A stretch of 64,000 bases of DNA from Candidatus Heimdallarchaeota archaeon (GTDB lineage Archaea > Asgardarchaeota > Heimdallarchaeia > Heimdallarchaeales > Heimdallarchaeaceae): positions 32,001-96,000 of the forward strand of contig JAHLWR010000004.1 of the NCBI GenBank assembly GCA_019057815.1, read 5' to 3'. Made by a program: the position numbers and the translations under genes. How positions within the stretch are numbered: position 1 is the stretch's first letter; every line of letters starts with the position of its first letter. Positions 27,413 to 39,443 of this stretch are shown piece by piece. The notes under the pieces were generated by a model. That model had not been told where the DNA came from. It saw only the letters and a list, made by a program, of their open reading frames with translations, and made no database searches.

Positions 27413-28249
27413 TTATTCAATGAGCATGGTTAGGTCAAAGTTTTTCACTGTGTGAGTAAGAGCTCCTGATGAGATCACATCTACTCCCTCAATCGCGTAT
27501 AATTCTACATTTTCAAAATTAATATTCCCACTTAATTCTATTAGAACGGAAGGATTAACATTCTTAATTGCTGGGATAACAAGTTTAACATTAACAGGTT
27601 TGAAATTGTCCAACATAATTATATCAGCACCTGCAGAAGCTGCTTCCAAAGCTTCTTCTTTGTTTTTGACTTCAACTTCGATTTTTTTACTAAAACTTGT
27701 CTTGCTTTTTGCTTTTTCTATTGCTTCAGTTATAGATTTGAACATCTTCAAATGGTTTTCTTTCAAAAGGATCATATCAGAGAGATTAAAACGATGCGTG
27801 TCCCCTCCACCTTTTGAGATTGCATACTTGTCGTATTTTGCTAACCCAGGAGCTGTTTTTCTTGTTGCACAAATTCTAATGTTTGGGTTATACTGTTTAG
27901 TAATATTAATCATTAGGTCTGTTTGAGTAGCAATACCGGATAATCTACCTAAAATGTTCAGAGACAATCTTTCTATCTGTAACAATGAATGGATATTTCC
28001 TGTGAAAGAAACAATAGGTGTTTTATTAGCTACTTTGGACCCCTCTTCTACGAGAAGTTTTATTTCTGTTCCTACCATTTCAAAAGCTCTCTCAACTAAA
28101 AACAAACCTGCGATTATACCTTCTTGTTTAGCAAAAATTTGCCCTTTAGCTTTATAATTAGGTAATAAAGATGTAGTAATGTCCCAAAGAGGGATGTCTT
28201 CTGCAAGCCATCTTTTAAGATCTTCATCAATAAGAATTTGCGGAATCAT
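27413..28249 (-). CDS. nadC: Nicotinate-nucleotide diphosphorylase (quinolinate phosphoribosyltransferase)
   Basis: ERLSLN, SGIAT, TRKTAPG, HRFNLSD..LLKENH, EVEV, IMLDN and SGNI. Confidence 0.95.
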   Translation of the reverse strand: MIPQILIDEDLKRWLAEDIPLWDITTSLLPNYKAKGQIFAKQEGIIAGLFLVERAFEMVGTEIKLLVEEGSKVANKTPIVSFTGNIHSLLQIERLSLNILGRLSGIATQTDLMINITKQYNPNIRICATRKTAPGLAKYDKYAISKGGGDTHRFNLSDMILLKENHLKMFKSITEAIEKAKSKTSFSKKIEVEVKNKEEALEAASAGADIIMLDNFKPVNVKLVIPAIKNVNPSVLIELSGNINFENVELYAIEGVDVISSGALTHTVKNFDLTMLIE

Positions 28250-28267
28250 TGTGAATCTTTCGTGAGT

Positions 28268-29293
28268 TTAGTATTTCAGCATTCTGATTACTGCTTTATG
28301 TGCTCTCCTTCTAATATTTTCATCCAATGTGATATAATTCTCTTCTTTGGGATTTTCAAGAGCTTGAAGTATAGATACTAAGTCGTTTTCTTTCATGTTT
28401 GGACAGATCATATTACTGTCTACGAGATTTAAATGAGGATATTCAACTTTCATTCTGTCAATAAATCCTTGCTCAGTTAGAAAGAGTATTTTTTTGGATG
28501 AGGGTGCTTCATTCAAAAATCTGTGCATATCTCCTGTTCCACCTGTTTTAGTTGAGGATTTTACAATCTCAGGTCTGCATTCCAAATGTGAAAAAGAGAT
28601 AACTTCGTTATCATTAAGTTCTTGTTCAAATTTTCTAGGTGATATTGCGTGATGAGTCCTACAATATCCTTCCCAAGTTATTACTTTTTTACCTGTTATT
28701 CTAGCCAAATTCTCCCCCATGTTTTTGTCAGGTAAGTAAATTATTGTATCACTCTCTAATGATTCAATTATTTTTTTTGCATTGGTTGATGTGCAACAAA
28801 TATCTGATTCTGCTTTTACATCTGCTGTTGTATTAACATAGCAAACTATAGGGACTCCAGGATATTCTAGTTTGAGCTTTTTAACATTCTCACCGGTTAT
28901 AGAATCAGCAAGAGTGCATCCAACTCCTCTTGTAGGAACTAAAACGGTCTTTTGAGGGCTCAGAATCTTGACTGTTTCAGCCATAAAATCTACACCAGTA
29001 AAAAGAATAGTGTTTTCCTCAACTTCTGTTGCTTTCTTTGATAATCCTAAAGAGTCTCCAACAATATCTGCAACTCCAAAAAGAATATCTGCGGTTTGAT
29101 AGGAATGGGCTAAAATCTTAACGCCCTTTTCCTTTTTTAACTTGTTAATCTTTAGTGTAATTGGAGCAAGTTTCTCGCAAACCTGTTTACTCCAGCCTAA
29201 GAGACTTAATTTTGAATAGAGACGATCAGATTCTTGTCTAAGTTTCTCAGAGAAACATTGTTGTTGTGATGTAGCTTTTTCCGCAATGAGCAT
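28268..29293 (-). CDS. nadA: Quinolinate synthase
   Basis: LAHSYQ, GDSLGLS, GVDFMAET, GCTLA, YVNT, WEGYCRTH, HLEC and CPNM. Confidence 0.95.
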   Translation of the reverse strand: MLIAEKATSQQQCFSEKLRQESDRLYSKLSLLGWSKQVCEKLAPITLKINKLKKEKGVKILAHSYQTADILFGVADIVGDSLGLSKKATEVEENTILFTGVDFMAETVKILSPQKTVLVPTRGVGCTLADSITGENVKKLKLEYPGVPIVCYVNTTADVKAESDICCTSTNAKKIIESLESDTIIYLPDKNMGENLARITGKKVITWEGYCRTHHAISPRKFEQELNDNEVISFSHLECRPEIVKSSTKTGGTGDMHRFLNEAPSSKKILFLTEQGFIDRMKVEYPHLNLVDSNMICPNMKENDLVSILQALENPKEENYITLDENIRRRAHKAVIRMLKY

Positions 29294-29483
29294 TTGATCT
29301 CGGTTTATCTATCTTCTACAGTATTTAAAGAAAGTTCGATATGGGAAAGAAAGGGAGAGTATATTCCTTAAAACCCATTCCAATTGACTAGAACTGAATA
29401 ATGCATCTATCACTAAAACTATTTGAAGCAATATTTACCTCTATTATTGTTAGAAATAGCAATACATAAAGGCCTTACGTATG

Positions 29484-29503
29484 TGGGTGTGATATAACAC
29501 TCA
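29484..29503. promoter_or_regulatory. Imperfect palindrome, candidate operator
   Basis: TGGGTGTGATATAACACTCA (8 of 10 pairs complementary) in the nadA / NADK-HTH divergent region. Confidence 0.3.
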
Positions 29504-29631
29504 TTTATATAATTCTGTTTTTTATATGTTTTTTTGAAGGAAATAACTACCTTAAAGCCCAATAGAGAGATGTTGGAAAACTATTTAACCTTATAAATAG
29601 ATATGAGTATAGAATCATTGAGTTATTCAAC

Positions 29632-30681
29632 ATGAAGATAGCATTATACATTACTGAGGATACGAATTATGTTGAACTAGCTAATACTATTAAGAAAACT
29701 ATTTTGGCAATTAATCCAGAAACAATATTGATAGAAATAGCAGATAAGCACTTATCTACTAATAATTGGTTAGAAACGTCAAATTTATTTCCAAAAAATG
29801 ATCTCAAATGCATTATAGCAGTAGGTGATACTGGAACCTTTCTTCGAGCAATATTTCATATGCGTTCCAATATTCCAGTAATAGCAGCTTCAATAGAAAA
29901 GATCAGTTTCTTTACAGAGATAACACCAAACAACTTGTATGAAGCGCTTCAAGCTATATTAACTGATAAGTATTTTATTGATCAGTATAATAGAATTGAG
30001 ATTAGAGATCCAAGAAGTAAGATTGCTTTTTCAGCATTAAACGAGATAGCTATATTCCCTAATGAATCAGCTCGTTTAATGAACTATACTTTAGTAATCG
30101 ATGATGATGTGCTTTACAGGTCTTGTAGAGCTGATGGTCTAATAGTATCAACAGCTTTAGGGAGCACAGGATATGCATTATCTTCAGGGGGGCCAATAGC
30201 GTATGGTGATCCAGAAATATTAATTGTAATTCCAGTAAATCCACTCGATAAAGATCATAGTCCTGTTGTTGTACCAATAAATTCAGTAATTAAAATAATT
30301 AATGTTGAAGCACGTTCATCGCTAGGTTTGATTCTAGATGGACAATTAAGGATCCCAATAGAAGAAGAAGTAAGTATAAGAAAATCGAACATTTCTGTAG
30401 GAATAGTAAGATTTGAATCGAAAAGAAATCTAATGGCTAGACTCAGAAAAAGGCTAGTAGAACAGGATTTACGCCTTCTAGAAGGTGTTCCGCCATCAGC
30501 TAAATATATTTTTAAACTACTTTTAACAGAAGGAGAGATGACACAAAAGGAATTAATCGAGAGTACGGGATTACCAAATAGAACAGTACGAAATGCACTA
30601 AGAATACTGAAGGAAAAAGGGGTTATAATGCAAAGAGCTTATTTGAAAGACGCTCGTCAATCGATTTATTTTGTATCATGA
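29632..30681 (+). CDS. NAD kinase-like domain fused to a C-terminal winged HTH
   Basis: ALNE, DGLIVSTALGSTGYALSSGGP and LDGQ. C-terminal PPSAKYIF...MTQKELIESTGLPNRTVRNALRILKEKG...DARQSIY. GGDG is replaced by GDTG. Confidence 0.85.
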   Translation: MKIALYITEDTNYVELANTIKKTILAINPETILIEIADKHLSTNNWLETSNLFPKNDLKCIIAVGDTGTFLRAIFHMRSNIPVIAASIEKISFFTEITPNNLYEALQAILTDKYFIDQYNRIEIRDPRSKIAFSALNEIAIFPNESARLMNYTLVIDDDVLYRSCRADGLIVSTALGSTGYALSSGGPIAYGDPEILIVIPVNPLDKDHSPVVVPINSVIKIINVEARSSLGLILDGQLRIPIEEEVSIRKSNISVGIVRFESKRNLMARLRKRLVEQDLRLLEGVPPSAKYIFKLLLTEGEMTQKELIESTGLPNRTVRNALRILKEKGVIMQRAYLKDARQSIYFVS

Positions 30682-30904: not shown

Positions 30905-32908
30905 TTATTCTATTTTTAGTCTTTTTCGAGAGAGTAATATTAGGAGTAGCAAAGGAACTACTACTATTAATAGAGTAAATGTGAAAAATATTTGAGTTTC
31001 ATCTGTAGAATATTCGACAGGTTCGTCAAGAGGGTAAAGATCGAATGAACTTGCAGAACCATAAATAGAATAATTACCTATCCCTGACCAATCTGACCAA
31101 AAATTGCCTTCTGAAGTTTCAGTATCATACCATGTATTGTTTGTTCCAGAATCATGTGCTTGGGAAGTTCTTCCTAGATTATTGTCTACAAAGGTATTAT
31201 GGTGAATGATGTTATTATCAGAATCAGACAAGGAGTCGACACCATAGCGTTCATTTTCTTGTAGAAGATTGTAAGTAACGACACAAAAATCAGAAGACGC
31301 AAGAAAGATGCCATATCTGTTATTATTGCAACTGTTGTTTAAAATAGTGGAACTCCCAGAATAGTGAAGCTTGATGCCTATGTAGTTGTTGTTACACGTG
31401 TTGTTTTCAACCTTCGCACTCCCAGAAGAGTAAAGAGAGATGCCGTTCCAGTAGTTGTTGTTGCATGTGTTGTTTACAATAACTGAATATGTACAGTAGT
31501 AGAGAAATAAACCAGTTGTAGCGTGATTTAATATTTGGTCACGTACTGTCACACTAGTACAGTTGACTAACATCAGCTGCCCATAGACTGGTTCAGCAAT
31601 TATTGTAGAGTCAAGGTTTATGTAAAAACCTATTTTTTTCCCATTCACCCAATTATTCTCGACAGTATACGATAGATAAGCATCAATGGTATATTCCCTT
31701 ATCTCTAAGCCACAATTAGTAAAAGTGTTGTTTGCCACAGTAGCTCTACCAGAAAGCCAAAGAGAGATGCCCTCGTCATTGTTGTTGCACGTGTTGTTGA
31801 TGATAGTAGAACTACCAGAATTCTTAAGCCTGATGCCTTTCCAGTTGTTATTGCACATGTTGCTTATCACCGTCACACTCACAGAATCCTCAAGCCAGAT
31901 GCCTTCGTTATTGTTGTTTTCGCACGAGTTGCTTATCACCGTAGAATTACCAGAAGACTCAAGATAGATACCACCGTACCTGTTGTTGCTGCAAGTATTG
32001 TTAACAATAGTGGAATTACCAGAAGACTCAAGATGGATGCTATAGTGGTTATTACTGCATGTATTGTTAATAATAACTGAATATGTACAGTAGTAGAGAA
32101 ATAAACCAGTTGTAGCGTGATTTAATATTTGGTCACGTACTGTCACACTAGTACAGTTGACTAACATCAGCTGCCCATAGACTGGTTCAGCAATTATTGT
32201 AGAGTCAAGGTTTATGTAAAAACCTATTTTTTTCCCATTCACCCAATTATTCTCGACAGTATACGATAAGTAAGCATCAACTGTACTTTCGCTTATATAT
32301 AAACCACAATTAGAAAAAGTGTTGTTTACCACCGTCGAACTCCCAGAATACCTAAGCCAGATGCCATGTCTGTTATTATTGCTACATGTGTTGTTGGTCA
32401 CTGTCGAACTCCCAGAATCCTCAAGCACGATGCCATAATCGCCATTATTGTTGCACGTGTTGTTGGTAACAGTAGAATAATTAGAATCGCGAAACTTGAT
32501 GCCTTCATAGATATTGTTGTTGCACGTGTTGTTAATGATAGTTGCTGTCTTATCAGCTACATTTCTGATACAAATACCATAATATGCGTCAACATAGCAA
32601 TTACGAACAATGAAATATTTAGTTGTAGCTCTAATATAAATACCATAGCGACTAGTTGTTGTGATCTTGTAACCATCAATAAGATAAGGGTTCTCAACTG
32701 TTCCTGTTCCGGGAAAAACCAAAAAATCACTATCAGAAGTAATGGATATAGGATCATGTGGTGTTAATGAGGAGTAAGTTGGTGGGTTGTAAGAAACAGT
32801 TGTAGAACTTACTCTTATACCAGAGAATATACTTATTCCAACAATTAATAGTGAAACACATAAAACTCCTCTAATTGAGACTTTAGATTGTTTTGATGAC
32901 CTTTTCAT
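30905..32908 (-). CDS. Membrane-anchored right-handed parallel beta-helix (NosD/PbH1) surface protein
   Basis: Signal peptide, many NNTCNNNxxGIxLxxS coils, the GNFWSDW...DLYPL cap and a C-terminal TM with basic tail. ATG at 32908. Confidence 0.9.
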   Translation of the reverse strand: MKRSSKQSKVSIRGVLCVSLLIVGISIFSGIRVSSTTVSYNPPTYSSLTPHDPISITSDSDFLVFPGTGTVENPYLIDGYKITTTSRYGIYIRATTKYFIVRNCYVDAYYGICIRNVADKTATIINNTCNNNIYEGIKFRDSNYSTVTNNTCNNNGDYGIVLEDSGSSTVTNNTCSNNNRHGIWLRYSGSSTVVNNTFSNCGLYISESTVDAYLSYTVENNWVNGKKIGFYINLDSTIIAEPVYGQLMLVNCTSVTVRDQILNHATTGLFLYYCTYSVIINNTCSNNHYSIHLESSGNSTIVNNTCSNNRYGGIYLESSGNSTVISNSCENNNNEGIWLEDSVSVTVISNMCNNNWKGIRLKNSGSSTIINNTCNNNDEGISLWLSGRATVANNTFTNCGLEIREYTIDAYLSYTVENNWVNGKKIGFYINLDSTIIAEPVYGQLMLVNCTSVTVRDQILNHATTGLFLYYCTYSVIVNNTCNNNYWNGISLYSSGSAKVENNTCNNNYIGIKLHYSGSSTILNNSCNNNRYGIFLASSDFCVVTYNLLQENERYGVDSLSDSDNNIIHHNTFVDNNLGRTSQAHDSGTNNTWYDTETSEGNFWSDWSGIGNYSIYGSASSFDLYPLDEPVEYSTDETQIFFTFTLLIVVVPLLLLILLSRKRLKIE
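31478..32268. repeat. Exact 197-bp intragenic direct repeat (31478-31674 = 32072-32268)
   Basis: Base-by-base comparison; the 594-bp offset is in frame. Confidence 0.9.
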
Positions 32909-33236
32909 AGTTTCACCTATCAAGATAATAAAATCATGTTATATTATATTTTATGAATTTTAACTCTTTCGCTCTGGAAATGACACTTCCTTTTCTCTCA
33001 ACTTACTAAAATAAAGTCGAAGTTTTAAAACTATAAAATTGTATTTAAAGAAAGTATAATTTTCATACTGAATCTCAGCTACTAGAGAATTGGTTTCTGT
33101 AAATCAGATTTTTTCTTATTTGCGTTCGAATTTTTCGTAAGTAGCTTTAAATATGATAAGCCATTCTTGTTTTTTTGGGAAAAGACTTAGATAAGTATCA
33201 AAATGTATTTGTCTATAGTAAAAAGAGTCGCGAGAA

Positions 33237-36200
33237 GTGAATAGAATGATATGTAAAAAGAAAATTATGGCAGTTTTAGCTGTTTTTTTGTTAATGTTGA
33301 ATATTTCGACAGTTTATACTAGTGCGCACGCAGTAAGCAATCAAACTGAATTTTTGTTATATGCTAATCCTGGAGATATGTTGACTAAAAAAATTGGGAT
33401 AATATATGATCCTTTTAACCAAATAACAGAAGAAGTTGCAAAATCGATTTATGAAACTATAGATGTATTCTACTCTAAAGTAGAGCTAGTTCAAGTTTTC
33501 AATCATAATTCATTTGTAGAAGCGTTTTACACAGATTATTGGATTATGATTTATGTCTTTCACTCATCTCTAGAAGGAATAGAATATGGAGGTTGGACTC
33601 TATCATGGAAAGATTTGTCATGGTATTATGATGCTTATTCTGAACGCAAGCACATAGGAGTTTTTGGTAACGCATACCAATTACCAAATTATGAAATTGC
33701 TGAAAACTGCTATTTTGAGAAAGTAGAAGTATTAGAAGCACGTTTAGGATATTTACATGCAGTATGGTCACTTTCAGAGATTTTTTCACAAGAAGCTGAT
33801 CCACTTTATAGAGAGATAGGAGACAGATTCAAGCTTGTAGCGGTGAAATACTTTGGTGATGAAATGGAATCTTTAATTCAATCAGAAATTGATCCAAAAT
33901 ATGGTTTAGGAGAAGTTGACCCTGCAAAAGCAAAAGCAAGGCTTGAAGACAGTCTGAAAGACCATCCTACAAGGCTAAACAAAGTTCACCCAATTACTGG
34001 AGAATTATTAGATCCAACCAAAAAGATTGATGGTTTTAATCCTGTTATAGATATTACACCTGAGCTTCAAGTAGATCCTGGAGATGTAGTTCTTGGTGAC
34101 TTTCCAGACTTATCTTCTATTACTGGAGCAGCAGGTGATGTAATAAATATCATTTTAGGTATCATAGGTGTTGAAATCCCTGATGGCGTTATCACAATGG
34201 CAGGAAGCTACGCTAGTGAAATATCAAATATAATCAAACAAATTCCTAAAGTTATAGGGCTTATTAGGGATCCTAGTGCAAGCACAGCTATTGAAATATT
34301 TCTGGACATATTGGAATCAGCTTTTCCCTCTTTAATTCAATATAAACCATTCTTTGAGATCGCGGCTCAAGCAATTTTTGCAGTTAGAGAAGGTCCAACA
34401 GCTTTACTAGGATTAGTAGATGATTTGTTACTATTCATTGTTCCTGAAAGCGCAAGGGATTTCGTTGAAACAGCAACAGATGCACTAAACCTTACTCAAG
34501 ACTTCTTTGATGAATTAGTGAACCATGAAAACAAAGGTTCTTTCATCATGAGTTATCTGAATAAGCAACTTATGTATACTCTCATAGAAACAGCTATTGA
34601 GACGCTGGGAATTGGAGACGTTCAAGAAACAACCTCTATGATAACCCAGATGATTCAAGTAGGAATCGACCTGATATCTAATAAGAACATAACTCATATC
34701 GTTACAGATGTTCTTCCTACTTTAGTAAAAAGTCTTCTAGGTGGGTCACTTGATTCAACAGGTGAGAAGATACTTGATATAATCACATCAGCATTAGGAA
34801 TGGGACTAGGAGCAGCTGGTGTCATTGATTTAGATTTTAAGGATGGCTTTATTAACATTCTAAAGGCTATATGGCCAGATATCAATGAAAAAGCTCCTGA
34901 AATTAAGGGAAAAATTGATGAAGTTATTGATATAGTAAAGCAAATAGTAGAAGGAGAAACATCATTACCCAGTTTTACTACGGTTAAAAATCAAATAGTT
35001 GGAATCTTAACAAATGTAGATTCATATTCATCCCTATTTGATTTAAATGAGAATCAAAAACAAGTTGTTGGAGAAGCTATAACTCTTGTCTTAGGACTTC
35101 TCAACGGAAACTTCGACACATCAGGTTCTAATTTTATCTCAGTAGTGGATGGTATTTTGGATCATTTCACTGGTTTTGATACAGGAGTAAAAGAAATCAT
35201 AACTAAGACTCTTGAACTAACGTCATCATTAATCGCTTTTATTTCCGATATTGATGGATTTAAAACATATGTTAAAGGATCAGTCACTAATTTCCTATCA
35301 GATTATGACAATGTAGGTAAATTAATATCAACTGTTGTTGGAGCAGTTCTAGATGATCATGGACCTGATCCTCAAGTTTTACAACAGATTGGAAATGTCG
35401 TAGGATTAATTATTAATCTAATAAAAGACGGAGCAGACTTTTCTGTACAAAACATTATACAAGCAATCGTTGGTGTAGCGAGTGCAGCATTAACTAAACT
35501 TGATGTCAATATACCTTTTTCAGTCATTGAAAATATTTTCAACTTAATGTTTTCTGGTTTACCGGAATTTGACAATGTGCAAGATGTTGTTAACACCATT
35601 ATGGATGTAATAGAACCGTTAGTTCCAAGTGAAATTAAAGATATTATTGATACTGTTCTAACGTTTTTAGGTTCATCTAGGCAGTTATATACAGATAGTT
35701 TGAAATGGATCATTAACCAGTTAGTAGGCTTTGTAGCAGGGAAGATAGCAGATTTGCTGAATACACTTACAAACAAACTGAACGAATTCGTTGAATCAAT
35801 TGGAGATTTAGTGAGCTATGATGCAGATTTCAATGTGGAATTTGGAGGTTTCTCAGCCTTTACAATGAATGTATTTTTCTCCTTATCTCCAGGATTTTCG
35901 ATAAATAGTGATGCAATACAAGAACTAATAACAGATTTAGTTTTCCAGGGATCAGATGCTTTAAGTGGAGATAACCTAGGTAAACTTTTCAAAACAATAT
36001 TAAAATCGGTTTCAATTATACCGTTGTTCAAAGCAGGAGTAACAGTAAGCTCTGGAAATTCTGGAAAGAATGATTTAATGAAGACGCTGCTGGATATGCT
36101 AGGTCTTGAACTATCGTTTTCTGGGTCAGCAGGACTAACTTTACAATTGCTGAAAATAGAGAGTGGTAGAATAAGTACGAGTGATTTCTTCAAAGTTATA

Positions 36201-39200
36201 GAGTTCTTCTTCAGATTTGAAATAACTGTGTCAAAGAAAATTCCACTATTAGAGTTCTTAGGGCCTGGAGGATCTGCTCTAGCGAAAGTAGCAGAATTCT
36301 TAGGTTTAGGAGGAATATATCTTGTTATATCATTCTTCCTGAGTGTAGAAATCGTAAGAAGAGTAGAGACTACGTTTCAAGAAGCTGCGGATATTCTAAC
36401 TGTTATTATAGGTTTGAGTGTCATGATAGTAATAGATATCAATCTAGTGATAGTAGGAATTAAGATTACTTTAGGTTTTGTAGTAACGTTATCATTTATT
36501 CAAGATTTCGCGGCAGGGGCGCCGTTACAAGTGATTCTTGAAATCTCTTTCATAGTGACAGTGAAACTAACGTTCTTATTCTTAAGTTGGGGTAAGACTG
36601 TAGAATGGGGACCAAACCCAATTTATCTAGCAGGAGGACAAGATGATCCGGAAACGAAGGATGAGATGATGGGAGTCGACTCGGACGGGGACGGGCTTCC
36701 TGATTCATATGAAATAATGGTACCAGGTTTAAGACCAGATTTAGCTGATTCAGACGGTGATGGACTAACTGATAAATTTGAAATCAAGCATACAGGTACA
36801 AATCCAATACTTGCAGATACGGATGGAGATGGCTTAGATGACGGTTTTGAGCATTCTGTCTGTAAAACTAATCCTCTAGCACCTGATTCAGATTATGATG
36901 GATTGGATGATTATCAAGAAGTAGTTATTATAGGAACAGACCCTAATAATATCGATACAGACGGAGATGGTCTAGATGACTATTATGAAGTAAATACCAA
37001 GTGGAATATGACTGGAATAACAAGGAGTGTACATTCTGTTACTATTGGAGGAGTGGAATATTTCGATCATACAGATCCTCTAGTCGCTGATACAGATCAA
37101 GATGGGCTGTTAGACGGTCAAGAAGGACCATTTGGAGGATATTATGGTCCTGAACTTTATAGTGATGATTTCCCAGACCAACCTCCAATATTCTTCAACG
37201 AAGGATATACTCATCCACTAGACAATGATACAGATGATGATAGTTACCAGCAACTATGCAATGGAACAATTTCACCTTTACGCATGTATTTGATAGATAT
37301 GACAGATAGAGTTGAAATCGAAGGACAATGGGTAATATTCTTGGAAGATGATGAACTAATCCCAAGATTAGTAAGAACCAACCCCACTAACCCAGATTCT
37401 GATGGTGATACGGGAATACAAAGTCCAGATTGGAGAGGAGATGCATGTCCACCGCACTGGTTCCTGAGGTCAGATGGTTACGAATTGTGGCTAGACCCCC
37501 CAACAGACCCGAATGATGGAGATTCAGACGATGATGGTCTTATTGATGGATTGGAAGGATACGGTAACCCCGAAACTAATCATACTGATCCAAACAACCC
37601 AGATACAGACGGAGATGGTCTAGGGGACCTTCAAGAAATAATTCTAGGAACTGATCCACTAAATCCAGATTCTGACGGAGATGGGGTACTTGATGGAGAT
37701 GAATTCTTCAAGTATGGAACTAATCCTGCTTGGGAAGACACTGATTTTGATGGATTATTAGACGGAGAAGAACTCTTTCTCTATCACACAAACCCTCTAG
37801 ACCCGGACTCCGACGGGGACGGGTTGACAGACGGTTTAGAAGTGCTGTATTATGACACCGACCCTATGGATGAAGATCAAGATAATGACGGTCTGACAGA
37901 TTGGGAGGAGTTATTTGTCTTCTATACGTCACCGCGTATGTATGATACAGATGGAGACGGTCTTTCCGATTATGAGGAAGTCGCTATTTATTTGACCGAT
38001 CCCCTAAAATGGGATAGTGATAATGACACTATTTGGTATCTAAACGAATTTGGTGAATATACTTTTGAAATGTCAGATGGTCAAGAAGTGAAACTTTATG
38101 GTACTAACCCCCTATCCTCTGATACTGATGGTGATGGTATTTATGATAGTTATGAACTCTATTTAGGTTCAGGGTTAATTCCTGATTTTGAACCTGTACT
38201 TCTTGATCCGAATTCAAACGATACGGACTCAGATGGAATTATTGACTTCCACGAATACCAAATTACAAATGTGTCAAACATAATCCATCCTTACATTAGT
38301 TTCGTTATCATTACACCTTTTAACACCTCAGTTGTAAATCCTGATACGGACGGAGACGGGTTACTGGACGGTGAAGAGCTTTATGGTTACGAAGTTGGAT
38401 ATTCTAGACCTTGGGTTTCAAGCAATTTAGTACGTAGCCTTCCTAATAATAACGATTCAGATGGAGATGGTTTGACTGATTATGAGGAGATAGTGGTGTT
38501 TGAAACAGATCCGAATACAGATGACACAGATGGCGATTTTCTTTCTGATTATGATGAAGTTAAGACATTTGTTTATCCTCAACATCATGATTACAATGGT
38601 GATCCAGGTGTTGCTTTAGATCCATTTAATCCCGATGTAGATGGTGATATGTTACCGGATGGATCAGAAATCTTACTTTACGGATCAGATCCGACGATTG
38701 CTGATGAAGATGATAATGGTGTTTTAGATGGTTACGAAAAAGACTTTGATTTTGATGGTTTAGAAGATGGTTACGAGTTCTTCAAATATAAGACTTGGGC
38801 TATTGCTGGTGGAGGAGTTACTCAAGCAGATTCTGATCGAGATGGTCTTTCAGATGGTCAAGAAGTCTATATGTTTGGAACCAATTGTACTTATTGGGAT
38901 ACAGACAATGACACCTATTCTGACGGGCTTGAAGTGATGTTGGGACTTGATCCATTAACATTTACAACCTTTGAGGAATTTCAAGCAGCAATGGATGTTA
39001 TAGAACGTGGTATTGTGGTTATCTCACCAATACAAGGCGGAGTTTATGCTGAAGGTAATCATACTTTCATTGTCTACAATGGTTCTGAAGTCTTAGATAT
39101 CACTTATCAATTAAACAAAGATGATGAGGGATTTGAAGAAAACTATACAATGTCTTTCACTACCGAAACAGGAACTTGGATGAGTGGAACCTACTATACT

Positions 39201-39443
39201 ACAGGAATATCTCTGAAAAAAGGGGAGTATGAAGTTATGTTCTATGTCCATCATTGGGATGACAGCTATACAACCGTCAATCGCTCATTCTCTGTTGCAG
39301 TAGTAGAAGGTTTGACGAACTTCGAGCTTGTTATGATTGGAGTAGGTGGAGGAGCAGCAGCGGGAGCAGCAGGTACATTGGTGTACTATATGGCTCGAGC
39401 TGGTAAATTTAGCTGGCTTAAGGGCTTGTTTGGAGGTGCATGA
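33237..39443 (+). CDS. Giant secreted, membrane-anchored protein with about 25 TSP3-like DxDxDG Ca-binding repeats
   Basis: Signal peptide, long amphipathic helical region, hydrophobic beta-rich region, D[ST]DxDGLxDxxE...TxP repeats (about 36680-38950), Ig-like segment and Gly-rich C-terminal TM. Confidence 0.85.
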   Translation: MNRMICKKKIMAVLAVFLLMLNISTVYTSAHAVSNQTEFLLYANPGDMLTKKIGIIYDPFNQITEEVAKSIYETIDVFYSKVELVQVFNHNSFVEAFYTDYWIMIYVFHSSLEGIEYGGWTLSWKDLSWYYDAYSERKHIGVFGNAYQLPNYEIAENCYFEKVEVLEARLGYLHAVWSLSEIFSQEADPLYREIGDRFKLVAVKYFGDEMESLIQSEIDPKYGLGEVDPAKAKARLEDSLKDHPTRLNKVHPITGELLDPTKKIDGFNPVIDITPELQVDPGDVVLGDFPDLSSITGAAGDVINIILGIIGVEIPDGVITMAGSYASEISNIIKQIPKVIGLIRDPSASTAIEIFLDILESAFPSLIQYKPFFEIAAQAIFAVREGPTALLGLVDDLLLFIVPESARDFVETATDALNLTQDFFDELVNHENKGSFIMSYLNKQLMYTLIETAIETLGIGDVQETTSMITQMIQVGIDLISNKNITHIVTDVLPTLVKSLLGGSLDSTGEKILDIITSALGMGLGAAGVIDLDFKDGFINILKAIWPDINEKAPEIKGKIDEVIDIVKQIVEGETSLPSFTTVKNQIVGILTNVDSYSSLFDLNENQKQVVGEAITLVLGLLNGNFDTSGSNFISVVDGILDHFTGFDTGVKEIITKTLELTSSLIAFISDIDGFKTYVKGSVTNFLSDYDNVGKLISTVVGAVLDDHGPDPQVLQQIGNVVGLIINLIKDGADFSVQNIIQAIVGVASAALTKLDVNIPFSVIENIFNLMFSGLPEFDNVQDVVNTIMDVIEPLVPSEIKDIIDTVLTFLGSSRQLYTDSLKWIINQLVGFVAGKIADLLNTLTNKLNEFVESIGDLVSYDADFNVEFGGFSAFTMNVFFSLSPGFSINSDAIQELITDLVFQGSDALSGDNLGKLFKTILKSVSIIPLFKAGVTVSSGNSGKNDLMKTLLDMLGLELSFSGSAGLTLQLLKIESGRISTSDFFKVIEFFFRFEITVSKKIPLLEFLGPGGSALAKVAEFLGLGGIYLVISFFLSVEIVRRVETTFQEAADILTVIIGLSVMIVIDINLVIVGIKITLGFVVTLSFIQDFAAGAPLQVILEISFIVTVKLTFLFLSWGKTVEWGPNPIYLAGGQDDPETKDEMMGVDSDGDGLPDSYEIMVPGLRPDLADSDGDGLTDKFEIKHTGTNPILADTDGDGLDDGFEHSVCKTNPLAPDSDYDGLDDYQEVVIIGTDPNNIDTDGDGLDDYYEVNTKWNMTGITRSVHSVTIGGVEYFDHTDPLVADTDQDGLLDGQEGPFGGYYGPELYSDDFPDQPPIFFNEGYTHPLDNDTDDDSYQQLCNGTISPLRMYLIDMTDRVEIEGQWVIFLEDDELIPRLVRTNPTNPDSDGDTGIQSPDWRGDACPPHWFLRSDGYELWLDPPTDPNDGDSDDDGLIDGLEGYGNPETNHTDPNNPDTDGDGLGDLQEIILGTDPLNPDSDGDGVLDGDEFFKYGTNPAWEDTDFDGLLDGEELFLYHTNPLDPDSDGDGLTDGLEVLYYDTDPMDEDQDNDGLTDWEELFVFYTSPRMYDTDGDGLSDYEEVAIYLTDPLKWDSDNDTIWYLNEFGEYTFEMSDGQEVKLYGTNPLSSDTDGDGIYDSYELYLGSGLIPDFEPVLLDPNSNDTDSDGIIDFHEYQITNVSNIIHPYISFVIITPFNTSVVNPDTDGDGLLDGEELYGYEVGYSRPWVSSNLVRSLPNNNDSDGDGLTDYEEIVVFETDPNTDDTDGDFLSDYDEVKTFVYPQHHDYNGDPGVALDPFNPDVDGDMLPDGSEILLYGSDPTIADEDDNGVLDGYEKDFDFDGLEDGYEFFKYKTWAIAGGGVTQADSDRDGLSDGQEVYMFGTNCTYWDTDNDTYSDGLEVMLGLDPLTFTTFEEFQAAMDVIERGIVVISPIQGGVYAEGNHTFIVYNGSEVLDITYQLNKDDEGFEENYTMSFTTETGTWMSGTYYTTGISLKKGEYEVMFYVHHWDDSYTTVNRSFSVAVVEGLTNFELVMIGVGGGAAAGAAGTLVYYMARAGKFSWLKGLFGGA

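What the first reader, a model, noticed from the sequence alone, without database searches (positions are those of the whole stretch)
27413..30681. Candidate new NAD-sensing transcription factor: pseudo-NAD-kinase fused to a winged HTH, divergent from nadA-nadC
Seen: the catalytic GGDGT motif reads GDTGT (29824-29838) and the GxxGFL loop reads EKISFF. The NAD-binding motifs NE and DG-x-ST-x-GSTGY-x-S-x-GGP are intact. A complete wHTH follows, and the gene is head-to-head with de novo NAD synthesis genes. Established: the GGDG Asp is essential in NAD kinases, and known NAD regulators (NadR, NrtR, NiaR, Rex) use other sensor domains. Inference: an enzyme-derived NAD(P) sensor controlling nadAC.
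Basis: partly seen in the sequence, partly recalled or inferred. Interest (0 to 1): 0.75.

Follow-up and report, generated by a model that had tools for sequence, protein, structure and literature searches.

The report
NAD-kinase-derived regulator of NAD genes
A Heimdall-group Asgard archaeon carries a spare NAD kinase that has lost its catalytic motif and gained a DNA-binding domain. Comparison across archaea indicates it is an apparently undescribed switch for NAD-synthesis genes, acting through a 13-bp palindrome.

Summary
The gene at 29632-30681 encodes a 349-aa protein with a full NAD-kinase fold and a C-terminal MarR-like winged HTH. GGDGT reads GDTGT, the second Gly-rich loop reads EKISFF, and the NE and DG...GSTGY...GGP motifs are kept. 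It faces nadA-nadC.

The genome also has a canonical NADK with both motifs intact, plus a third NADK-like gene.

The fusion is not limited to this family. About 70-78 clusters at 50% identity carry the same wHTH (named members: Bathyarchaeota, Micrarchaeota, Thermoplasmatota; also Asgard and Woesearchaeota loci). They form one clade in an NADK-domain tree. 17 keep GGDG and sit mostly at its base; 53 are degenerate.

- 23 of 26 Heimdallarchaeaceae loci and 15 of 20 distant Asgard loci are head-to-head with nadA. Others sit beside pncB/pncA-like genes.
- A palindrome, GGCAA-N3-TTGCC, lies in all 15 distant nadA-regulator spacers, usually as two copies 29 bp apart.
- The window copy is AGCAATATTTACC (29427-29439).
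- The palindrome is absent upstream of nadA in 24 Asgard genomes that lack the fusion. It stays at nadA in two genomes where the regulator is unlinked.

Ligand and sign of regulation are inferred only. No paper describing this was found. Earlier runs of this scan reached the same reading on other genomes.

The parts
27413..28249 (-). nadC (quinolinate phosphoribosyltransferase), second gene of the target operon
   Evidence: Pfam QRPTase_N and QRPTase_C; TIGR00078 at 312 bits, above its cut-off
28268..29293 (-). nadA (quinolinate synthase), first gene of the target operon
   Evidence: PF02445 at 317 bits; NF006878 at 310 bits, above its cut-off
29322..29330 (-). Candidate TATA box of nadA (CTTTAAATA on the minus strand), 28 nt before the start codon
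   Evidence: Conserved in all 21 aligned Heimdallarchaeaceae spacers. An RNA-library contig of a ~95% relative ends at 29297 (weak hint). Assigned from sequence only.
29343..29355 (.). O1-like nadA-proximal site, degenerate here (GGGAAAGAAAGGG). Relatives read GGnCAAAATTG at the same 13-14 nt from the TATA box.
   Evidence: It corresponds in position to O1 (GGCAA-N3-TTnnC), 7-13 nt from the nadA TATA box in distant Asgard loci.
29427..29439 (.). O2, the candidate operator AGCAATATTTACC, a variant of the palindrome GGCAA-N3-TTGCC
   Evidence: It is the most conserved element of the spacer in all 21 loci. It lies at a fixed 94-97 bp from the nadA TATA box. The same palindrome is present in 15 of 15 distant nadA-regulator spacers and 0 of 24 fusion-less controls.
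29460..29486 (.). Imperfect inverted repeat (CAATACATA...TACGTATGTG). It is the counterpart of a 19-bp palindrome seen only in genus g5. Function unknown; probably not the regulator's site.
   Evidence: Not conserved in genus g4 or outside the family.
29591..29600 (+). Candidate TATA box of the regulator gene (TTATAAATAG), 31 nt before the ATG
   Evidence: TAAATA is conserved at this position in the alignment. Assigned from sequence only.
29632..30681 (+). Regulator gene: 349-aa NADK-fold sensor fused to a wHTH
29824..29838 (+). Degenerate GGDGT motif (GDTGT, residues 65-69)
   Evidence: Alignment with canonical NADKs
29881..29922 (+). Degenerate second Gly-rich loop (IAASIEKISFFTEI against canonical xGxNxGxxGFLTEx), residues 84-97
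30040..30195 (+). Retained dinucleotide-site motifs: N137-E138 and D168-G169...GSTGYALSSGGP188
   Evidence: Invariant or nearly invariant across 84 fusions
30430..30477 (+). Linker helix (residues 267-282) between the NADK fold and the wHTH
   Evidence: AF2 model, with lower pLDDT of 55-63 here
30487..30675 (+). MarR-like winged HTH (residues 286-348; recognition helix about 316-329, LPNRTVRNAL)
   Evidence: Pfam HTH_24/TrmB; AF2 and Foldseek; spacing fixed in 75 of 78 fusions and P288, R317, T318, L326, D340, R342 and Y346 at 90% or more

Best explanation
The gene encodes a transcription factor whose sensor is a NAD-kinase fold that no longer works as a kinase.

The C-terminal domain keeps the dinucleotide pocket. 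The N-terminal phosphoryl-donor and catalytic motifs are destroyed, and a separate NADK does the enzyme's job.

The MarR-like wHTH recognises the palindrome GGCAA-N3-TTGCC. One good site (O2, 29427-29439) and one weak nadA-proximal site (O1-like, 29343-29355) lie upstream of the nadA-nadC promoter.

NADKs are dimers or tetramers. An oligomer probably contacts both sites on one face of the DNA.

Occupancy of the pocket by NAD(P)(H) is inferred to change DNA binding and so to match de novo NAD synthesis to the pyridine-nucleotide pool.

Shown here: domain architecture, motif states, the paralogous NADK, conserved gene linkage, and the operator's co-occurrence with the regulator.

Inferred: DNA binding itself, the ligand, the oligomeric state and the sign. 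The sites lie just upstream of the TATA/BRE region, as for RbkR, which mildly favours an activator released by the end product. A repressor is not excluded.
For: (1) Architecture and motifs.

(2) Spare copy. G000 has a canonical NADK and a third NADK-like gene. The same trio is found in 5 other near-complete Asgard genomes. A second NADK is also found in Woesearchaeota, Thermoproteales-labelled, Baldr- and Thorarchaeota genomes.

(3) Linkage. 23 of 26 Heimdallarchaeaceae loci are head-to-head with nadA. Two exceptions are TnpB-like insertions at contig ends, and in the third nadA lies 6 kb away. 15 of 20 distant Asgard loci (regulator 28-40% and NadA 33-40% identical to the window's proteins) are also head-to-head. 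Others lie beside NAPRTase-like and isochorismatase genes (pncB/pncA-like) or NfnAB-like genes. A Woesearchaeota locus is divergent from nadA-nadC-nadB. Family f24 has no detectable nadA, and there the regulator precedes the pncB-like gene.

(4) Operator. GGCAA-N3-TTGCC with at most one mismatch is in 15 of 15 distant nadA-regulator spacers, and in 9 loci as two copies exactly 29 bp apart. Background in the 15-kb loci is about 0.4 hits per locus, as expected by chance. The Heimdall version AGCAA-N3-TTGCC is the best-conserved spacer element, at a fixed 94-97 bp from the nadA TATA box.

(5) Co-occurrence. 0 of 24 nadA upstream regions have the site in fusion-less Asgard genomes spanning about 14 families. 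The site or site pair stays at nadA in G004 and G051, where the regulator is unlinked.

(6) The wHTH is far more conserved than the sensor, and its spacing is fixed. This matches an invariant operator.

(7) All 70 fusions form one clade in an NADK-domain tree, support 0.985.

(8) RNA-library contigs from a ~95% identical relative cover the nadC, nadA and regulator coding regions (weak).
Against: No binding, ligand or expression experiment exists.

In this window O2 has two mismatches to the palindrome (A for G, and TTACC), and O1 is only a half-site. Regulation here may therefore be weaker than in relatives.

O2 lies about 95 bp from the nadA TATA box and about 150 bp from the regulator's presumed TATA box. 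That is an unusual distance for an archaeal operator.

TATA boxes and transcription starts are assigned from sequence only.

The half-sites are 8 bp apart centre to centre, which is short for a MarR-type dimer.

Stand-alone ~65-96-aa homologues of the same wHTH exist in these genomes and could share or compete for the site.

nadX, the first pathway gene, has no site in this genome.

Related genomes are not independent samples, so the counts overstate the statistical weight.
Confidence: 0.75

Rival explanations
1. Bifunctional trigger enzyme. The window protein is still an active NAD (or NADH) kinase as well as a regulator, as RbkR, BirA and NadR are both enzyme and regulator.
For: 17 of 70 representative fusions keep GGDG and the GxxGFL loop and lie mostly at the base of the fusion clade. 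Many others keep the Asp (G[G/S]DR). In one genome (G404 = G286, 87% complete) only the fusion was found as an NADK.
Against: In this protein and all 24 Heimdallarchaeaceae orthologues aligned, the Asp position is T, A or S, and the second Gly-rich loop is replaced by ASSEKISFF. A canonical NADK is present in nearly all of these genomes. The GGDG motif is nearly universal in NADKs (GGDGT in 124 of 127 archaeal homologues) and is thought to take part in catalysis (PMC3769651).
Confidence: 0.08
2. It regulates NAD genes, but the effector is not NAD(P)(H). Candidates are a pathway intermediate (quinolinate, NaMN, NaAD, nicotinate), ATP or polyphosphate, or no small ligand at all, with the fold serving only as an oligomerisation scaffold.
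For: No ligand was tested. The donor-site motifs vary widely (GDTGT, GGDR, GDDS, GNDR), so the pocket has changed. NiaR and NrtR sense nicotinate and ADP-ribose rather than NAD (PMC2330245, PMC2330246; abstracts).
Against: The residues that are invariant across 84 fusions are those of the NADK dinucleotide-site motifs (N137, D168-G169, G177-S-T, Y181, G186-G-P). Such conservation is hard to explain for a mere scaffold.
Confidence: 0.12
3. The linkage is hitch-hiking. The protein is a DNA-binding protein with a different or broader role, and the palindrome is a nadA promoter element read by another factor, for example the small stand-alone wHTH paralogues.
For: Small homologues of the same wHTH are widespread. 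Similar palindromes lie next to such genes in Methanoperedens contigs.
Against: The palindrome is absent at nadA in 24 genomes that lack the fusion, although most of those carry the small homologues. The fusion sits beside different NAD genes (nadA, pncB/pncA-like) in lineages with different pathways.
Confidence: 0.05

Closest known systems
RbkR, archaeal riboflavin kinase/wHTH regulator (Rodionova et al. 2017, PMC5397151)
   Same: It is an archaeal cofactor-pathway regulator built from a small-molecule kinase domain and a MarR-type wHTH. Its operators lie 1-12 nt upstream of promoter elements of the biosynthesis genes and of its own gene. The regulon was found by comparative genomics. The end product modulates DNA binding.
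   Different: The kinase fold is unrelated (CTP-dependent RibK against the NADK fold). The domain order is reversed: the wHTH is N-terminal in RbkR. RbkR is the sole, active riboflavin kinase in most genomes, whereas here the kinase motifs are lost and a separate NADK exists. The operators differ.
NrtR, NiaR and NadR, the bacterial NAD-metabolism regulators (PMC2330246, PMC2330245)
   Same: They have the same physiological job: local control of nadA/nadB/nadC and pnc genes. NrtR also uses a catalytically degenerate enzyme fold (Nudix) as sensor, fused to a wHTH.
   Different: The sensor folds differ: Nudix, 3H, or NMN adenylyltransferase plus ribosylnicotinamide kinase. None of these was detected here. 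They are bacterial, act with sigma-factor promoters, and have different operators.
NAD kinase NadK/PpnK (EC 2.7.1.23), e.g. A. fulgidus 1SUW, P. aeruginosa 7QVS
   Same: It has the same two-domain fold (TM-score on the target up to 0.84) and the same NE and DG...GSTxY...GGP motifs.
   Different: The GGDG motif and the second Gly-rich loop are lost, and there is a C-terminal helix plus wHTH of about 85 residues. The protein scores 153 bits against NF002984, whose cut-off is 326.
Rex, the NADH/NAD+ redox-sensing repressor
   Same: It is a wHTH joined to a pyridine-nucleotide-binding domain.
   Different: Rex uses a Rossmann fold and controls respiratory and fermentation genes, not NAD synthesis. 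No Rex family match was found.

Membership tests
NAD kinase (PF01513 + PF20143; EC 2.7.1.23) | Two-domain NADK fold | tested here: met
   Pfam hits above the cut-offs. The AF2 model matches 1SUW, 7QVS and 4HAO with TM-score on the target of 0.74-0.84.
NAD kinase (PF01513 + PF20143; EC 2.7.1.23) | GGDG motif with the catalytic Asp | tested here: not met
   The motif reads GDTGT. The Asp position is T, A or S in all Heimdallarchaeaceae orthologues.
NAD kinase (PF01513 + PF20143; EC 2.7.1.23) | Second Gly-rich loop NxGxxGFL | tested here: not met
   The loop reads ASIEKISFF.
NAD kinase (PF01513 + PF20143; EC 2.7.1.23) | NE/D and DG...GSTxY...GGP dinucleotide-site motifs | tested here: met
   N137-E138 and D168...P188 are present and invariant or nearly so in 84 fusions.
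NAD kinase (PF01513 + PF20143; EC 2.7.1.23) | Phosphorylation of NAD | not testable with these tools
   This needs an enzyme assay.
MarR-like winged-HTH transcription factors | wHTH fold: three helices and a beta wing | tested here: met
   HTH_24 E=3e-6. AF2 gives H288-300, H305-312, H316-329 and a wing at 332-348. The best Foldseek hits are MarR-family regulators, several solved in complex with DNA.
MarR-like winged-HTH transcription factors | Sequence-specific binding to a palindromic operator | tested here: inconclusive
   The evidence is comparative only. The palindrome co-occurs with the regulator: 15 of 15 against 0 of 24. No binding assay was possible.
Trigger-enzyme regulators of the RbkR type | Pathway kinase domain fused to a wHTH, with operators at the pathway genes | tested here: met
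Trigger-enzyme regulators of the RbkR type | The enzyme domain is catalytically competent and is the cell's only copy | tested here: not met
   The motifs are degenerate and a separate NADK is present. The feature may hold for the 17 GGDG-intact relatives.
NrtR / NiaR / NadR / Rex | Nudix, 3H, NMNAT plus RNK, or Rossmann sensor domain | tested here: not met
   No such Pfam or NCBIfam match was found.

The most novel reading that the evidence does not exclude
This is the first dedicated NAD-homeostasis transcription factor family of Archaea. An ancestral bifunctional NAD kinase/regulator became, in most lineages, a pseudo-kinase that reads the NAD(P) pool. As a tetramer it bridges two helically phased GGCAA-N3-TTGCC operators to switch de novo (nadA/C/B) or salvage (pncA/B) genes. 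The family spans Asgard, DPANN, Bathyarchaeia and Thermoplasmatota.
Probability: 0.5. Interest if true: 0.8.

Novelty: new variant of a known kind. Interest (0 to 1): 0.72.

Why it matters
I know of no described transcription factor for NAD synthesis in Archaea, and three full-text searches found none. The known regulators (NadR, NiaR, NrtR) are bacterial.

This family would fill that gap. It adds the NADK fold to the short list of enzyme folds recruited as metabolite sensors. It also offers a series from probably active kinase/regulators to pure pseudoenzyme sensors in which that transition can be studied.

These genes are annotated as "NAD(+)/NADH kinase" in public records. That label is probably wrong for most members and inflates apparent NADK copy number in Asgard metabolic reconstructions.

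The operator is short, well defined and directly testable in vitro.

Tried and rejected
Contexts were obtained through the genome search, the fetch from genomes and the search for related loci instead.
- The search for related loci with alignment A3 found no stretch conserved enough. It was repeated with A5.
The same happened to a script with pasted sites, which was rewritten to read files.
- Rfam on the spacer gave only sub-threshold snoRNA-like noise. An RNA element is also unlikely because in most lineages the palindromes lie between the two divergent TATA boxes, outside either transcript.
- The sigma-70 promoter scan does not apply to archaea.
- The 19-bp palindrome TACGTATTGnCAATACGTA was rejected as the regulator's operator. 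It is confined to genus g5, while the wHTH is invariant family-wide.
- A PWM scan and a palindrome scan of the whole genome gave no further intergenic site near NAD genes. nadX has none.
- RNA evidence: only one metatranscriptome holds a ~95% relative, and only as contigs. These cannot show starts, strand or level, and no cover of the spacer was seen.
- No site with at most two mismatches was found near the regulator in L100, L103 and L098.
Full report
**1. What is there**

The window is AT-rich (about 33% GC). Its closest public relatives are MAGs labelled Candidatus Heimdallarchaeota.

- nadC (27413-28249) and nadA (28268-29293) lie on the minus strand.
- A 338-bp spacer follows.
- A 349-aa ORF lies on the plus strand at 29632-30681.

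Pfam and NCBIfam confirm NadA and NadC at or above their curated cut-offs. In the third protein they show NAD_kinase N and C domains plus an HTH_24/TrmB-type wHTH at residues 293-335. Its best NADK equivalog score is 153 bits, against a cut-off of 326.

An AlphaFold2 model built on 84 family members has mean pLDDT 90.4. It matches solved NAD kinases, with TM-score on the target of 0.74-0.84 for 1SUW, 7QVS and 4HAO. A helix at residues 267-282 leads into a three-helix, two-strand wHTH. Folded alone, that part resembles MarR-family regulators, several of them solved in complex with DNA.

**2. Motif states**

I aligned the protein with 24 orthologues, the genome's own canonical NADK and three bacterial or archaeal NADKs.

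- Canonical GGDGT is G[D/G/S/H][T/A/S]GT in every orthologue, and GDTGT here (29824-29838).
- The NxGxxGFL loop is ASSEKISFF.
- N137, D168, G169, G177, S178, Y181, G187 and P188 are invariant across the whole alignment.

GGDGT is present in 124 of 127 archaeal NADK homologues and is thought to take part in catalysis (PMC3769651). That the Asp is essential rests on my knowledge of NADK mutagenesis, not on a test here.

**3. A spare copy**

The genome (95% complete) has three NADK_C-bearing genes:

- a canonical one on C12, with GGDGT and GRVGFL intact and 210 bits to NF002984;
- the fusion;
- a 372-aa NADK-like protein on C38.

The same trio occurs in five other near-complete Asgard genomes. 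A second NADK is also present in the Woesearchaeota, Thermoproteales-labelled, Baldr- and Thorarchaeota genomes that carry a fusion. In one genome (G404 = G286, 87% complete) only the fusion was found.

**4. How wide the family is**

A word-based search found about 39 clusters at 51-92% identity, all Heimdall-labelled, then a drop to ordinary NADKs at 35% or less.

An exhaustive profile search of 1.84 billion representatives found about 78 further clusters at 50% identity. They are 317-362 aa long and match through the wHTH. Named members come from Bathyarchaeota, Micrarchaeota and Thermoplasmatota.

A wHTH profile finds fusion-sized frames in many Asgard families. A scan of genome contigs adds Woesearchaeota and Baldrarchaeota.

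The wHTH has fixed spacing in 75 of 78 fusions. P288, R317, T318, L326, D340, R342 and Y346 are conserved at 90% or more.

In a FastTree phylogeny of the NADK domain alone, all 70 usable fusions fall in one clade, support 0.985. That clade also holds eight proteins without a wHTH; five of these have degenerate motifs and short lengths (240-300 aa) and look like truncated fusions.

- 17 fusions keep GGDG and sit mostly at the base of the clade.
- 53 are degenerate, mostly within one 59-tip clade, support 0.83.

Many degenerate members keep the Asp but read G[G/S]DR. The likely history is a single fusion that made a bifunctional kinase/regulator, followed by loss of catalysis. Rooting and several weak nodes make this an inference.

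**5. Gene linkage**

Within the family, 23 of 26 loci are head-to-head with nadA.

- Two exceptions have a TnpB-like element inserted upstream, at a contig end.
- In G004, nadA lies 6 kb away on the same contig.

Neighbouring genes such as the M42 peptidase and a large secreted protein are also syntenic within the family, so this alone is weak evidence.

The stronger test is at distance. In 20 loci from other Asgard families (regulator 28-40% and NadA 33-40% identical to the window's proteins), 15 are again head-to-head with nadA although the flanks differ.

Of the other five:

- one has the regulator directly followed by a NAPRTase-like gene;
- two have it next to a NAPRTase-like gene and an isochorismatase (pncA-like) gene;
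- one is divergent from NfnAB-like genes;
- one belongs to a divergent subfamily next to a Band7 gene and another NADK-like gene.

Family f24, where the regulator precedes the pncB-like gene, has no detectable nadA in 4 genomes. A Woesearchaeota contig has the regulator divergent from nadA-nadC-nadB.

**6. The operator**

Alignment of 21 Heimdallarchaeaceae spacers shows two TATA-like boxes and one outstanding element, AAGCAA-N3-TTGCCTAT.

In the 15 distant spacers the same element appears as the perfect palindrome GGCAA-N3-TTGCC.

- All 15 have at least one copy with at most one mismatch.
- Nine have two copies exactly 29 bp apart.
- O1 is imperfect and lies 7-13 nt upstream of the nadA TATA box.
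- O2 is usually perfect and lies about 4 nt upstream of the regulator's TATA box.
- Elsewhere in those 15-kb loci, hits occur at about 0.4 per locus, mostly inside ORFs. That is the chance rate.

In Heimdallarchaeaceae, O2 sits 94-97 bp from the nadA TATA box (85-86 bp in genus g4), although the sequence between is not conserved. An O1-like GGnCAAAATTG sits 13-14 nt from that box. The O1-O2 distances of 29, about 72 and about 82 bp differ by roughly whole helical turns. That would suit one oligomer touching both sites, but this is speculation.

In the window, O2 is AGCAATATTTACC (29427-29439) and O1 is degenerate (29343-29355).

**7. Controls**

- The palindrome is absent from the 400-700 bp upstream of nadA in 24 Asgard genomes from about 14 families that lack the fusion. 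Most of these still carry the small stand-alone wHTH homologues.
- It stays at nadA where the regulator is unlinked. G004 has one site at the usual distance. G051 has an O1-O2 pair 29 bp apart.
- Related sites occur in the pncA/pncB spacer of L113 (two GGCAA elements 30 nt apart) and upstream of larA in L099 and L102.
- In this genome no other intergenic site lies near NAD genes, and nadX on C36 has none. The local regulon appears to be nadA-nadC.

Related genomes are not independent, so these counts should be read by lineage, not as statistics.

**8. Expression**

One metatranscriptomic run holds contigs 93-95% identical to the window. They cover parts of nadC, nadA (ending at 29297, 4 nt beyond the start codon) and the regulator ORF (29737-30621), and nothing in the spacer. 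Contigs from an RNA library cannot prove transcription or map ends, so this is a weak hint only.

**9. Mechanism and sign**

The pocket residues that are kept are those of the NADK dinucleotide site, and the phosphoryl-donor side is lost. The most economical reading is a sensor of NAD(P)(H).

Sites directly upstream of the TATA/BRE region resemble RbkR. For RbkR, sites 1-12 nt upstream of promoter elements led its authors to propose an activator whose DNA binding the end product suppresses (PMC5397151).

I lean slightly to an activator released by the nucleotide. O2 next to the regulator's own TATA box in most lineages could equally give autorepression. Neither is shown.

**10. Prior knowledge**

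Three full-text searches found no description of an NADK-wHTH regulator.

Earlier runs of this scan saw the same family in seven other genomes and reached the same reading. I had found the palindrome before reading those notes. I took from them the pointer to RbkR, which I then read myself.

**Verdict**

- Two refinements: the operator is now defined, and the family includes probably active kinases.

Noticed in passing
L008 (G002:C152) and L020 (G016:C86), upstream of the regulator: A TnpB/IS605-OrfB-like gene is inserted in the nadA-regulator spacer in two genomes. The contig breaks there, and this explains two of the three apparent losses of nadA linkage.
   Followed up: partly
L135-L197 (Methanosarcina, Methanolobus, Methanoperedens, Methanoregula, Methanocella and others); also 73-109-aa frames in most Asgard genomes: Stand-alone 63-96-aa proteins are 50-58% identical to the regulator's wHTH. 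In several Methanoperedens contigs, G[G/A]CAA-N3-TTGCC palindromes lie about 67 nt upstream and just downstream of such genes. This suggests the DNA-binding domain family and its site are older than the fusion.
   Followed up: partly
G000:C38 (L004:874-1992) and equivalents in 5 other Asgard genomes: A third NADK-like protein of about 372-390 aa keeps GGDGT but barely matches the NADK equivalog models (27 bits). Its function is unknown.
   Followed up: no
L037 (G040), L038 (G037), L098 (G058): A divergent subfamily of the fusion (24-27% identical; GGDG reads GDDD or SDSD; the DG of the NAD motif reads NG or NS) lies next to a Band7/SPFH gene and a 313-315-aa NADK-like gene. No palindrome was found there.
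   Followed up: partly
L099 and L102 (family f11): A LarA-type lactate racemase gene lies downstream of the regulator, with GGTAAATTWTGCC in front of it. From my own knowledge, LarA's nickel-pincer cofactor is made from NaAD, so it may belong to the regulon.
   Followed up: partly
window 29460-29486; L009-L025 spacers: A 19-bp perfect palindrome, TACGTATTGnCAATACGTA, occurs between O2 and the regulator gene in genus g5 only. The window has a rearranged, imperfect version. It may be the site of another factor.
   Followed up: partly
window 30905-32923 (-) and 33237-39443 (+): A 672-aa protein has internally duplicated Asn-rich repeats of the type NNTCxNN, resembling a right-handed beta-helix. 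A 2068-aa secreted protein has many Asp-rich DxDxDG repeats, resembling thrombospondin type 3 or calcium-binding repeats. The second is syntenic next to the regulator across the family.
   Followed up: no
G002 (same genus): C345 and C101: Two nadA copies are present, one 94% identical (a fragment at a contig start) and one 66% identical. The second carries the g5-type operator, which suggests a mixed bin.
   Followed up: no
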